The notes under the pieces: generated by a model
The model's input: the letters and a program-made list of their open reading frames with translations, nothing else
Databases searched by the model: none
What the model was told of the DNA's origin: nothing
Program-made: the position numbers and the translations under genes
Origin: Eledone cirrhosa
Lineage: Eukaryota
Assembly (NCBI GenBank): GCA_964016885.1
Contig: OZ024749.1
Location: 44,578,001 to 44,642,000, forward strand
Length of the DNA stretch: 64,000 bases
Reading direction: 5' to 3'
Shown here: piece after piece, positions 1,101 through 52,099 of the stretch
Position numbering within the stretch: the stretch's first letter is position 1
Layout: the number at the start of each line of letters is the position of its first letter

Positions 1101-1238
1101 AACGAAGGAAATGTGGTAAGGAACCAGGTGGACCATAACGCACCAAAGTACTCAATACTTGAGGTAGTAGAGTGGGTAATAGGAACCAGTAAGACCCCGA
1201 CAGCTGAGCTCAAGCCGTTTCGACGGCTAATTCTGGAC
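1101..1238 (-). mobile_element. TA-inserted Penelope-like terminus, family P1 (long arm only, 3' half of hammerhead)
   Basis: Near-identical to copies at 3954, 4151, 26766, 32979, 42433 and 51958; begins directly at (TA)n. Minus strand reads GAAA-CGGCT-TGAGCTC-AGCTG-TC-GGGGT. Confidence 0.75.
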
Positions 1239-1693
1239 TCATATGTATGTACATATATATATATATATATATGTACATACATAAACAGCTTTGGTTGTTT
1301 TACTATGCTTAAAACCGTCGTTCCGTAAGACGTATGTACCTGATTATGTGTGCAGTCTGATTTTCAGGATTTGACTGTTGCCTCGTAGATAATGGCCTCT
1401 CTCTCTTACATGACACATCTACAGGGCATGGGTTTCTCATGCTAGCATCAGGCTAGGTAGCGATGTGATGATTTATTGTTTATAATTCATTTAAAGTTGG
1501 GCATTGAACTAAAATTGACTGTAAGGTTGTGCCTTTTGAAATGTTTCCTCTAAAGTTGACTAGATTGGAAGTGTTTGCACTGACGTTCGGTGAGAAGGGA
1601 GGCGGGAACCATATTGTCCTATGGTTATATTTGAATCATATATATATATATATATATAAATGCATATATATGTATGTGTATGAGTGTGTGCAA

Positions 1694-3558: not shown

Positions 3559-3577
3559 CTGGTACTTTCTTCGGTTT

Positions 3578-3630
3578 TAGCTGTCAAAACGGCTGGAGCT
3601 CAGCGGTCGGGGTCCTGACACTTTATCTAT

Positions 3631-3672
<42 letters not shown>

Positions 3673-3800
3673 GAAAAGAGTACGATCCCCGACGGCTGAG
3701 TTCCGGCCGTTTCGTTAGATCCGACAGCTAGATCGCCAGCTAAATATCGAGTACTCTGGTCCGTTATGGTCCACCTCGTTTCTTACCAAACCCTCCATCT
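3578..3800. mobile_element. Two diverged P1-related fragments (3578-3630, 3673-3800)
   Basis: Share CCCCGACGGCTGAG..GCCGTTTCG and GAGTACTCTGGTCCGTTATGGTCCACCT with P1 and with the copy at 42679-42871. Confidence 0.6.
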
Positions 3801-3953: not shown

Positions 3954-4095
3954 AACGAAGGAAATGTGGTAAGGAACCAGGTGGACCATAACGCACCAAA
4001 GTACTCAATACTTAGGGTAGCAGAGTGGCTAATAGGAACAGTACAGAATTAGCCGTCGAAACGGCTTGAGCTCAGCCGTTGGGGTCTTACTTGTT

Positions 4096-4098
<3 letters not shown>
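3954..4098 (-). mobile_element. P1 element with internal deletion of one hairpin arm
   Basis: AACGAAGGAAATGTGG start, (TA)n on both sides, ends GTTCCT like the other copies. Confidence 0.75.
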
Positions 4099-4150
<52 letters not shown>

Positions 4151-4152
<2 letters not shown>

Positions 4153-4343
4153 CGAAGGAAATGTGGTAAGGAACCAGGTGGACCATAGCGCACCAAAGTA
4201 CTCAATACTACTTAGGGTAGTAGAGTTGGTAATAGGAACGAGTAGGAACCCGACGGCTGAGCTTAAGCCGTTTCGACGGCTAATTCTAGTCCAGAATTAG
4301 CCGTCGAAACGGCTTGAGCTCAGCCGTCGGGGTCCTACTCGTT

Positions 4344-4346
<3 letters not shown>
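4151..4346 (-). mobile_element. P1 element with ~58-bp terminal fold-back hairpin
   Basis: Arm AGGAACGAG...TAATTCT is followed immediately by its reverse complement; flanked by (TA)n. Confidence 0.8.
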
Positions 4347-4405
<59 letters not shown>

Positions 4406-8577: not shown

Positions 8578-9895
<1,318 letters not shown>

Positions 9896-26551: not shown

Positions 26552-26643
26552 ACCACATATATAACGCATGAATAACGCATGTACTGTAATCATATCAGCA
26601 TTAAACACTGAATATTTCCTTCTTAAAATAAATGTATGTCTTC

Positions 26644-26675
<32 letters not shown>

Positions 26676-26686
26676 GTATATATATA

Positions 26687-26765
<79 letters not shown>

Positions 26766-26767
<2 letters not shown>

Positions 26768-26982
26768 CGAAGGAAATGTGGTAAGGAACCAGGTGGACCA
26801 TAACGCACCAAAGTACTCAATACTTAGGGTAGTAGAGTGGGTAATAGGAACCAGTAAGACCCCGACGGCTGAGCTCAAGCCGTTTCGACGGCTAATTCTG
26901 GACTAAATTCTGGACTAAATTTTAGTCCAGAATTAGCCGTCGAAACGGCTTGAGCACAGCCGTCGGGGTCTTACTGGTTCCT
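26766..26982 (-). mobile_element. P1 element with fold-back hairpin
   Basis: Long arm plus inverted short arm; small duplication AATTCTGGACTA at the apex; (TA)n on both sides. Confidence 0.8.
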
Positions 26983-27327
26983 ATATATATATATATATAT
27001 ATACTTAATCTGTCATGCACACACAGAAACACACAAACTTACAGAACGGATAGTATCGTATAATGCTCTACAAATTGTCTCCCGTCACTGAATAATACTG
27101 TTTTATGCAAATGGCTGTATTTTGAATGATTTCTCTTATTTTCTTATATTGATTCATTTTAGTATCGACAGAAAATATACGTAACTGTATCCTCTATGAA
27201 TGTTAGTATGCTGACGAGATGATATCGGCTGAAACATGTGTCTGTCTATAGCTGTACATCACCTACAAGGAAAGTTCAGCCATCTCACTCTCTCAGTATG
27301 TGAACAATTCTGAGATCTTACATTTAT

Positions 27328-28090
<763 letters not shown>

Positions 28091-32959: not shown

Positions 32960-32978
32960 CATATATATATATATATAT

Positions 32979-33177
32979 AGGAACGAGTAGGACCCCGACG
33001 GCTGAGCTCAAGCCGTTTCGACGGCTAATTCTGGGATAAATGTCCAGAATTAGGCGTCGAAACGGCTTGCGCTCAGCCGTCGGGGTCCTACTCGTTCCTA
33101 TCACCCACTCTACAACCCTAAGTATTGAGTAATTTGGTGTGTTATGGTCCATCTGGTTCCTTACCACATTTCCTTCG

Positions 33178-33179
<2 letters not shown>
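32979..33179 (+). mobile_element. P1 element in the opposite orientation, with fold-back hairpin
   Basis: Short inverted arm then long arm; GAAA 33059-62, GTC 33079-81; (TA)n flanks. Confidence 0.8.
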
Positions 33180-33666: not shown

Positions 33667-34445
<779 letters not shown>

Positions 34446-42432: not shown

Positions 42433-42434
<2 letters not shown>

Positions 42435-42637
42435 CGAAGGAAATGTGGTAAGGGACCAGATGGACCATAACGCACCAAAGTACTCAATACTTAGGGTAGT
42501 AGAGTGGCTAATAGGAACGAGTAGGACCCCGACGGCTGAGCTCAAGCCGTTTCGACGGCTAACTCTGGACTAAAAAAAAAAAGTCCAGAATTAGCCGTCG
42601 AAACGGATTGATCTCAGCCGTCGGGGTCCTACTCGTT

Positions 42638-42640
<3 letters not shown>
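42433..42640 (-). mobile_element. P1 element with fold-back hairpin (poly-A loop)
   Basis: As the other P1 copies; the apex contains T(A)11. Confidence 0.8.
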
Positions 42641-42678
<38 letters not shown>

Positions 42679-42681
<3 letters not shown>

Positions 42682-42871
42682 AAAAGAGTCAGCACGCCGA
42701 CGGCTGAGCTCGGGTGGCTTAGTTCGCATCTAGCTGTCGAAACGGCCGGAAATCAGCTGTCGGGCTCTTGATTATTTTCCTCTCACCCACTCTACTACCC
42801 CAAGTATTGAGTACTCTGGTACGTTATAATCCACCTGGTATATTACCACACCCTTATTGTTATATATATCT
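42679..42871 (+). mobile_element. Diverged P1-related subfamily copy
   Basis: GAAA-CGGC..GCTG-TC-GGGC and ACCCACTCTACTACCCCAAGTATTGAGTACT are conserved; TA flanks. Confidence 0.7.

Positions 42872-51855: not shown

Positions 51856-52099
<244 letters not shown>

What the first reader, a model, noticed from the sequence alone, without database searches (positions are those of the whole stretch)
26766..26982. Abundant TA-targeted family P1 keeps only half a hammerhead and folds back at stem II
Seen in 7 copies (1101, 3954, 4151, 26766, 32979, 42433, 51958): the sense strand reads GTCCAGAATTAGCCGTC-GAAA-CGGCT-TGAGCTC-AGCCG-TC-GGGGT, i.e. stem II 3' strand, GAAA, 6-bp stem III, GUC and stem I. No CUGANGA lies upstream. 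In the hairpin copies a ~60-bp inverted copy begins there instead, with variable apices (GT, TAAATT.., GATAAAT, T(A)11), so the events look independent. Inference: cDNA snaps back on the long ribozyme stem II during target-primed reverse transcription, making the ribozyme fold the determinant of a stereotyped ~200-bp non-autonomous hairpin element.
Basis: partly seen in the sequence, partly recalled or inferred. Interest (0 to 1): 0.8.

Follow-up and report, generated by a model that had tools for sequence, protein, structure and literature searches.

The report
Penelope element's stranded start-of-transcript hairpins
These ~200-base hairpins, tens of thousands per genome, are short insertion products of a Penelope-type jumping gene whose full copies carry the whole ribozyme motif; they likely form when both ends of a cut in an AT repeat copy the same RNA back to its start and are then joined, which offers a natural test of how these elements make their inverted ends.

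Summary
The repeat is real: 7 window copies and 17,250 exact 40-mer arms genome-wide. Its parent is a ~3-kb Hydra-clade Penelope-like element (PLE), found here with an RT + GIY-YIG ORF. The 'missing' ribozyme half exists in 794 exact parent-type copies as a U3-A8 core variant, already known from Schistosoma PLEs. Hairpin arms end 3' at two fixed sites (+61, +139, the PLE 'tail') and 5' at a cliff (+1) near the apex of stem II. That cliff is a T(T/C)AGT motif 29-31 nt behind a TATA-like box, with non-genomic G or T-runs before it, so it is likely the RNA's capped start. Snap-back of one cDNA on stem II is not supported: truncation is symmetric between arms, each arm has its own added tail, and the loop is not kept. 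Best model: both DNA ends prime on one RNA, run off its 5' end and are end-joined. 135 of 139 hairpins pair one long with one short arm, and 28 of 7,028 mix two variants. They look like by-products, not a self-propagating element. Open point: no long ORF copy starts at +1.

The parts
26766..26904 (-). Long arm, element positions +1..+139 (+1 = 26904): 3' half of hammerhead plus the 78-nt PLE 'tail' (+62..+139), which in full-length copies runs on into the ORF leader
26905..26923 (.). Apex filler, 19 nt: A-run, a templated repeat of the arm's first bases, T-run
26924..26984 (+). Short arm, element positions +1..+61, ending in TAT that merges with the (TA)n flank
26933..26969 (+). 3' half of the type I hammerhead in the short arm: stem II 3' strand 26933-26941, GAAA 26942-26945, stem III, GUC with predicted cut after 26964, stem I 3' strand 26965-26969
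   Evidence: structure derived from parent copies
26640..26765 (.). Left (TA)n target tract (approximate start)
26985..27002 (.). Right (TA)n target tract
1101..1239 (-). Solo long arm +1..+139 with a non-genomic G before +1
3954..4100 (.). Hairpin copy: long arm truncated at about +49 (3954-4043, -) joined to short arm from +1 (4040-4100, +)
4151..4348 (.). Hairpin copy: long arm from +6 (-), short arm from +1 (+)
32977..33179 (.). Hairpin copy in the opposite orientation: short arm (-) 32977-33034, long arm (+) 33042-33179
42433..42642 (.). Hairpin copy with both arms reaching +1 and a 10-A filler
51958..52099 (.). Long arm from +18 (-) plus a ~21-nt stub of the second arm
42677..42850 (.). 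Older related subfamily (F2), degenerate hairpin

Best explanation
The hairpins are short insertion products of a Hydra-clade Penelope-like retroelement, likely made when both DNA ends of one cut in a (TA)n tract prime reverse transcription on one element RNA, run off its 5' end and are joined head to head. SHOWN: the parent element (pLTR-ORF-pLTR, 3,057-nt unit in L102) holds a complete type I hammerhead motif with a U3-A8 core; arms end at +61 or +139 next to (TA)n; arms stop 5' at a cliff at +1; one long plus one short arm is the rule; the two arms nearly always share sequence variants. INFERRED: (a) +1 is a capped transcription start inside the stem II apex, so the RNA carries only the ribozyme's 3' half at its 5' end; (b) the endonuclease cuts both strands, and the two 3' ends prime at the two internal sites +61 and +139 using 2-4 nt of TA microhomology; (c) both cDNAs reach the RNA end after 61 or 139 nt, often gaining a C opposite the cap and/or a run of A; (d) end joining with small deletions, microhomology or templated inserts closes the apex; (e) the products lack the promoter-like region and the ORF leader and are dead on arrival. 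Long insertions have the same two-armed layout but come from templates that do not end at +1.
For: Parent and ORF. Ribozyme: 794 exact 5'-half copies; the MFE and centroid of L048 are the hammerhead fold, and four other copies lie within 0.3-2.2 kcal/mol of it; three both-sided changes in stem II against the older subfamily. 3' ends: +61 in 151 and +139 in 164 of 353 arms; (TA)n flank in 337 of 349. 5' cliff: 122 of 331 non-parent arms start exactly at +1 and 1 of these continues 5 nt upstream; 150 of 205 tail arms start between -5 and +8. TATA-like box at -29 to -31 in the young subfamilies and T(T/C)AGT at +1 in all 16 aligned copies. Base before +1: T 60, G 31, C 22, A 9 of 122; parents have T or C there. 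Genome-wide ATG+AGTCC 284 against ATC+AGTCC 91. Two cDNA ends: long arm further 55, short further 44, equal 35 of 134; T-runs or G before +1 on both arm types; in 5 of 14 long one-tail insertions the tail arm is the shorter one (read). One RNA: 135 of 139 hairpins long+short, 0 long+long; 3,607 and 3,393 matched against 28 mixed hairpins; among mixed ones 3 of 20 are long+long (Fisher p=0.002). Where a partner arm was in reach, an arm passing +1 had a partner that also passed +1 (37 arm views; 3 others were separate neighbouring hairpins; 21 had none in reach). In vitro precedent: the anole PLE protein cleaves and extends both strands and starts at two internal sites that define the tail (PMC11167929).
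Against: No RNA data, so the transcription start and cap are inferred. The TATA-like box is absent in the older F2 subfamily and varies in others. The G excess is only 3-fold, and 13 of 31 G cases abut partner-arm sequence. +1 also lies in a predicted distal helix of stem II, so an RNA-processing or structural cause is not excluded. None of the 17 long ORF-bearing loci among 30 tail-to-ORF junctions begins at +1 (14 keep the upstream pLTR, 3 are otherwise truncated), which a simple '+1 mRNA is the template for everything' model would not predict. Matched variants could also reflect subfamilies active at different times. Later deletion at the centre of a palindrome could create some of the symmetry. 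About 4 of the 27 'short arm further' cases are parser artefacts of substitutions. Most sampled loci were chosen by exact patterns on one contig and are biased to young copies; 10 of the long insertions were chosen as pairs.
Confidence: 0.62

Rival explanations
1. Single-cDNA snap-back (first reader; related to the self-priming proposal for PLE head-to-head palindromes): one cDNA primed at +139 folds back in the stem II region and copies itself to +61.
For: Near-complete variant matching of arms, 28 mixed of 7,028. Breakpoints lie in the stem II apex region. Some apices fit a small fold-back, such as the pure A filler at window 42433. PMC3846280 proposed self-priming on an antisense template.
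Against: Short arm reaches further 5' about as often as the long arm. T-runs longer than the partner's A-run. Stem II loop almost never retained (1 of 122). In 5 of 14 long insertions the tail arm is the shorter. Mixed-variant hairpins and head-to-head joins with other repeat families exist. Solo copies stop at the same +1.
Confidence: 0.12
2. Twin priming is right, but +1 is not a transcription start: it is an endonucleolytic processing site or a strong RT stop in the distal helix of the long stem II.
For: +1 sits 4 nt from the apical loop of a predicted inner helix. TATA-like box not conserved in F2. No long ORF copy starts at +1.
Against: Non-genomic G excess before +1. T(T/C)AGT is kept while the rest of the loop diverges, and F2 arms often start at the same A in a different predicted fold (read by eye). 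A-runs and template jumps at +1 point to a physical RNA end.
Confidence: 0.15
3. A self-propagating non-autonomous hairpin element (SINE-, retrozyme- or MITE-like) mobilised as a ~200-bp unit.
For: Very high copy number; arms passing +1 were only 31 of 382 sampled; stereotyped size.
Against: 108 distinct apices in 134, none seen more than 4 times and the recurrent ones are simple joins. No terminal inverted repeats, since the 78-nt tail has no partner. No complete ribozyme and no tandem monomers. The same variants occur in parent-type copies for V1, V2, V3 and V5.
Confidence: 0.06
4. Two separate RNAs are routinely used, one per DNA end.
For: 28 mixed-variant hairpins; hetero-family head-to-head joins (L004, L006).
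Against: 99.6% matched variants and 0 of 139 long+long in the general sample; long+long appears only among mixed hairpins (3 of 20).
Confidence: 0.05

Closest known systems
Hydra-clade C-terminal EN+ Penelope-like elements (Craig et al. 2021, PMC8557442; passages, section 11 and supplement part 2 read)
   Same: Single ORF with RT then GIY-YIG; DKT, CxCX5C linker, CxxC and CxH, no CCHH; (TA)n targeting; pLTRs with a hammerhead; inverted 5'-truncated copy and a one-sided tail.
   Different: Unit slightly over 3 kb; RWR instead of RWK; tail 78 nt rather than 30-40; hammerhead with U3-A8 core, ~55-nt stem II region and 6-bp stem III, whereas all Hydra hammerheads listed in their File S2 have CUGANGA; most copies are fixed-size minis stopping inside the ribozyme.
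Anolis Poseidon PLE (PAc) in vitro mechanism (Frangieh et al. 2024, PMC11167929; parts 1-2 of 4 read: main text and start of methods)
   Same: Both strands cleaved and extended; two internal RT start sites whose interval is the tail; AT-rich target; ribozyme cleavage not needed for insertion.
   Different: Different clade; here priming shows 2-4 nt TA microhomology; the text I read does not state that the two primings build the inverted insertion, nor a stop at a transcript start.
PLE hammerheads with U3-A8 covariation (Schistosoma Cercyon family; Cervera and de la Pena 2014, PMC4209133; part 1 of 4 read)
   Same: U3-A8 in place of C3-G8 in a PLE pLTR (about 1,300 hits there); pairs of motifs on opposite strands 100-700 bp apart.
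   Different: Those are minimal motifs; this one has a full stem III with a palindromic loop and a very long stem II.
Head-to-head palindromes of Adineta vaga Penelope elements (PMC3846280; passages read)
   Same: Inverted pLTR junctions, optional tail, TATA plus Inr-like motif inside the pLTR.
   Different: That paper read them as self-priming on an antisense template; the counts here favour two primings on a sense template.
   Same: Both target ends prime on one RNA; the internal junction shows end-joining features.
   Different: In L1 the second priming site is variable and the first is the poly(A); here both sites are fixed, internal and 78 nt apart.

Membership tests
Hydra-clade PLE (parent) | Single ORF, RT followed by C-terminal GIY-YIG endonuclease | tested here: met
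   695-710 aa frames with YRDD at 340 and VIY..YIG at 583. By motif only: no Pfam hit for the query, RVT_1 in 1 of 40 aligned relatives, no PDB hit. Both translated copies carry a frameshift or lack the start.
Hydra-clade PLE (parent) | DKG changed to DKT | tested here: met
   DKT at 109; DK[TS] in 40 of 40 aligned
Hydra-clade PLE (parent) | N-terminal RWK motif | tested here: inconclusive
   Query has RWR; RW[KR] in 37 of 40
Hydra-clade PLE (parent) | CxCX5C linker; CxxC and CxH flanking the conserved E and N; CCHH absent | tested here: met
   CNCPDRSIC, CNLC, CKH; 40 of 40 each. Only one cysteine inside the GIY-YIG core of the query, by eye.
Hydra-clade PLE (parent) | (TA)n insertion; pLTRs; inverted 5'-truncated copy; one-sided tail | tested here: met
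Hydra-clade PLE (parent) | Placement inside the Hydra clade on an RT tree with reference elements | not tested
Hydra-clade PLE (parent) | Canonical hammerhead | tested here: inconclusive
   Complete topology but U3-A8 core; Rfam has no hit in the window, which holds only half motifs
Type I hammerhead ribozyme (parent pLTR) | Three helices around core, GAAA and NUH | tested here: met
   90.6% of cells paired, 3 both-sided changes, all from two F2 copies; folds; folding z-scores only -0.8 to -2.6
Type I hammerhead ribozyme (parent pLTR) | Watson-Crick pair between positions 3 and 8 | tested here: met
   U-A in 14 of 16 aligned; 4 of 57 distinct copies have C3 with A8
Type I hammerhead ribozyme (parent pLTR) | Self-cleavage after GUC (+41) | not testable with these tools
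   Only 4 of 205 tail arms start at +40..+46: no strong trace of cleaved templates
Non-LTR retrozyme | Tandem monomers each with a complete hammerhead | tested here: not met
   Hairpins are inverted and hold half motifs; definition from bioRxiv 10.64898/2026.07.22.740005, part 1 of 5
MITE | Terminal inverted repeats with a uniform internal sequence | tested here: not met
   One terminus (the tail) has no inverted partner; apices differ between copies

The most novel reading that the evidence does not exclude
The minis are stranded 'strong-stop' cDNAs of a retrovirus-like cycle in a Penelope-like element. The mRNA would start at +1 and be ended by the ribozyme at +41 of the downstream repeat, giving a 41-nt terminal repeat. 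Both cDNAs would be primed just inside the 5' end (+61, +139), run to the cap and, on intact RNA, transfer to the 3' repeat to copy the ORF and rebuild the promoter-bearing pLTR. On RNAs lacking the 3' repeat they are joined as hairpins. This would explain why stopping at +1 is all-or-none per insertion, why no long ORF copy starts at +1, and why chimeras jump onto RNAs at +184..+358. Read-through or circular templates explain the same facts equally well.
Probability: 0.25. Interest if true: 0.82.

Novelty: new variant of a known kind. Interest (0 to 1): 0.52.

Why it matters
How PLEs form inverted pLTRs with a one-sided tail, and what their hammerheads do, are stated as open in PMC8557442 and PMC3846280. 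This family supplies tens of thousands of independent, fixed-geometry events that can be counted. They favour two primings on one sense RNA over self-priming, and they place the RNA's 5' end inside the ribozyme, so that only the downstream repeat could self-cleave. The family, the U3-A8 core and the inverted layout are each of known kinds; what is new is the stop at +1 and the testability. For annotation: these repeats should be filed as PLE products, not MITEs or SINEs. Similar hairpin scars were noted by this scan in other genomes, so the layout itself is common.

Tried and rejected
A DNA search of the genome with the arm gave nothing because common words are skipped. CTGANGA within 4-30 nt of the arm's GAAA: 13 hits, chance apex fillers or chimeras with other repeats. 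Rfam scan of the window: 0. Pfam and PDB searches were nearly blank. No RNA holder listed, which is no evidence on expression; contigs cannot show RNA starts. My first breakpoint parser gave a false peak at -4 from partner-arm sequence and added A/T runs, and one search used a junction 18-mer as a reference; start positions and the base before +1 are therefore taken. A splice-acceptor or trans-splicing origin of +1 was considered and rejected: arms keep the AG and show no shared leader. Ribozyme-cut 5' ends were looked for and are rare. The automatic classes printed mislabel several short chimeras as '5trunc'; I read the rows by eye. Literature: seven answered searches found no paper describing start-site-bounded PLE mini-hairpins or twin priming for PLEs; subscription journals and Repbase/Dfam entries were not searchable, and only 1 of 59 parts of the PMC8557442 supplement plus a term search were seen. 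Look-ups of earlier notes by place and by sequence were empty.

Full report
Observation. The sequence at 26766-26984 is as described: (TA)n, a 139-nt antisense arm, a 19-nt filler, a 61-nt sense arm, (TA)n. All seven listed copies were recovered at 93-100% identity. None of nine window arms has a core motif within 60 nt upstream. The window lies in a 3.0-Gb genome where a 40-mer of the arm occurs exactly 17,250 times, with 0 for the reversed control. In 464 kb around the window there are 49 arms at 86% identity or more, 10 of them with the exact 40-mer. Scaling gives roughly 85,000 arms, or some 40-50 thousand insertions; this rests on a count of 10 and is rough. I number the element from the A of AGTCC as +1.

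The missing half exists. But non-hairpin copies share an upstream continuation holding ACCCC-TTGA(T/G)AA-G and CGGCTA, with 794 exact matches. ACCCC pairs with GGGGT after the GUC (stem I), CGGCTA with TAGCCG before GAAA (stem II), and UUGANAA is the core with a U3-A8 pair in place of C3-G8. One natural copy folds into the hammerhead as both MFE and centroid; four others lie within 0.3-2.2 kcal/mol. Across 16 aligned copies 90.6% of cells pair, with three both-sided changes in stem II, all contributed by two copies of an older subfamily. The U3-A8 variant is described for Schistosoma Cercyon PLEs (PMC4209133, part 1 of 4 read). Cleavage was not tested.

The parent. Twenty stretches around 5'-half matches gave full and partial elements. 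L102 has pLTR-ORF-pLTR with a 3,057-nt period, the tail running straight on into the ORF leader, a start codon at +232 and an inverted partial copy. The protein has YRDD, a GIY-YIG-like motif, DKT, CxCX5C, CxxC and CxH, and RWR for RWK. These match the Hydra-clade diagnosis in PMC8557442 section 11. 403 relatives were found among 7,999 scored candidates. Pfam and PDB gave almost nothing and no tree with named references was built, so the clade call rests on motifs.

Ends of the arms. From the 464-kb neighbourhood and 130 pattern-selected loci, 3' ends fall at +61 (151) or +139 (164) of 353, with (TA)n next to 337 of 349. The element reads TAT at +59..+61 and TTAT at +138..+141, so both sites have target microhomology. 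The 78 nt between are the one-sided tail; in the anole PLE the tail is the interval between two RT start sites, and both DNA strands are cleaved and extended (PMC11167929, main text read). At the 5' side, 31 of 382 arms were parent-type, 20 were dropped as too short or belonging to the older subfamily, and 122 of the remaining 331 start exactly at +1, with 1 continuing 5 nt upstream. Among 205 tail-bearing arms, 150 start between -5 and +8, 15 further upstream, and 4 near the predicted ribozyme cut. Solo copies and tandem chimeras stop at +1 too.

What +1 is. It is the A of T(T/C)AGT, kept in all 16 aligned copies while the rest of the loop diverges, 29-31 nt behind a TATA-like box in the young subfamilies but not in the older one. 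A TATA plus Inr-like motif in a pLTR was noted in PMC3846280 (passages); Drosophila Penelope has a TATA-less internal promoter (PMC2377424, passages). The base before +1 is T 60, G 31, C 22, A 9, whereas parents have T or C; 13 of the G cases abut partner sequence. Genome-wide, ATG before +1 outnumbers ATC 284 to 91. Copying of the cap as an extra G and addition of A-runs by RT are from my own knowledge; PMC11702581 mentions an extra G in a passage that was cut off. I infer a capped start, at about 70%. Against it: no RNA data; +1 also sits in a predicted distal helix of stem II; and none of 17 long ORF-bearing loci among 30 begins at +1.

How the hairpin forms. Of 139 hairpins with both arms parsed (of 141), 135 pair a long with a short arm, 4 are short+short and none long+long. 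With the corrected parser (134 pairs) the long arm reaches further 5' in 55, the short in 44, equal in 35; by 4 or more nt it is 31 against 27, about 4 of the latter being artefacts. A copy made by fold-back of the tail-bearing cDNA cannot hold bases that its template lacks. Fillers are often an A-run then a T-run, sometimes T only; 21 of 38 fillers of 6 nt or more hold a 6-mer from the arm. Departures from the common letter are 112 on one arm against 51 shared, 49 of those at two recurrent sites. In long insertions with one tail, the tail arm is the shorter in 5 of 14 (read). So each arm behaves as its own cDNA. Yet they nearly always share variants: 3,607 and 3,393 matched against 28 mixed, and among 20 mixed ones examined 3 are long+long. 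Passing +1 is all-or-none per insertion where a partner was in reach (ten loci were chosen as pairs). The simplest reading is two primings on one RNA followed by end joining. Subfamilies active at different times and later apex deletion remain partial alternatives.

Not a self-propagating unit. 108 of 134 apices are distinct and repeats are simple joins. The hairpins lack the promoter-like region and the ORF leader; in the anole element the first 172 nt of the ORF were needed. Transfer of that requirement to this family is inference.

Comparison and novelty. It works like a canonical EN+ PLE insertion (inverted truncated copy, one-sided tail; PMC8557442 passages), and the parent meets the tested Hydra motifs. 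It fails the retrozyme and MITE tests. Three earlier AI notes on other genomes reached a similar 'PLE fold-back scar' reading; they are unchecked and lower the novelty of the layout. What I did not find in seven searches is a mass-produced product bounded by a start-like site inside the ribozyme, or counts that separate twin priming from the published self-priming proposal. The unexplained lack of long copies starting at +1 leaves room for read-through templates, circular templates, or a strong-stop and strand-transfer cycle; the last is the novel case.

Verdict. Observation confirmed; interpretation partly supported; new variant of a known kind; interest 0.52.

Noticed in passing
L261, L262, L263, L270, L273, L275, L277, L283, L284; G000:C3:214146640-214147759: Short chimeras in which a unit running from about +1 to +184..+358 (clustered at +232..+255, near the ORF start codon at +232) is followed directly by another copy starting near +1; a five-unit array with 273-274-nt period is listed. 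Suggests template jumps onto short 5' RNAs.
   Followed up: partly
L002, L004, L006, L007: Head-to-head joins between an arm of this family and other repeat families that carry canonical CUGANGA hammerhead-like motifs; at least three such families seem to be present in the genome.
   Followed up: partly
window 3577-3788 and 42677-42850; L037:1801-1909, L205:5181-5290: Older subfamily F2 with compensatory stem II changes, no TATA-like box, the same TTAGT and the same hairpin habit.
   Followed up: partly
L166, L186, L226: A V2 sub-lineage has C3 with A8, a mismatch at the core 3-8 pair, predicted to impair cleavage.
   Followed up: no
L163 and L198: Near-identical 11-12-nt apex fillers in opposite orientation relative to the tail arm; possibly a source RNA with a short 5' extension.
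   Followed up: no
L111:3-839 (-), L115:3769-5085 (-), L105:3-1097 (-), L113:5934-8209 (-): Frames of other retroelement families, apparently PLE-like, next to the parent copies.
   Followed up: no
   Followed up: no
window 8950-9850, 27519-27862, 33670-34230: Long (GAT)n and (TA)n tracts; the window is dominated by simple repeats.
   Followed up: no
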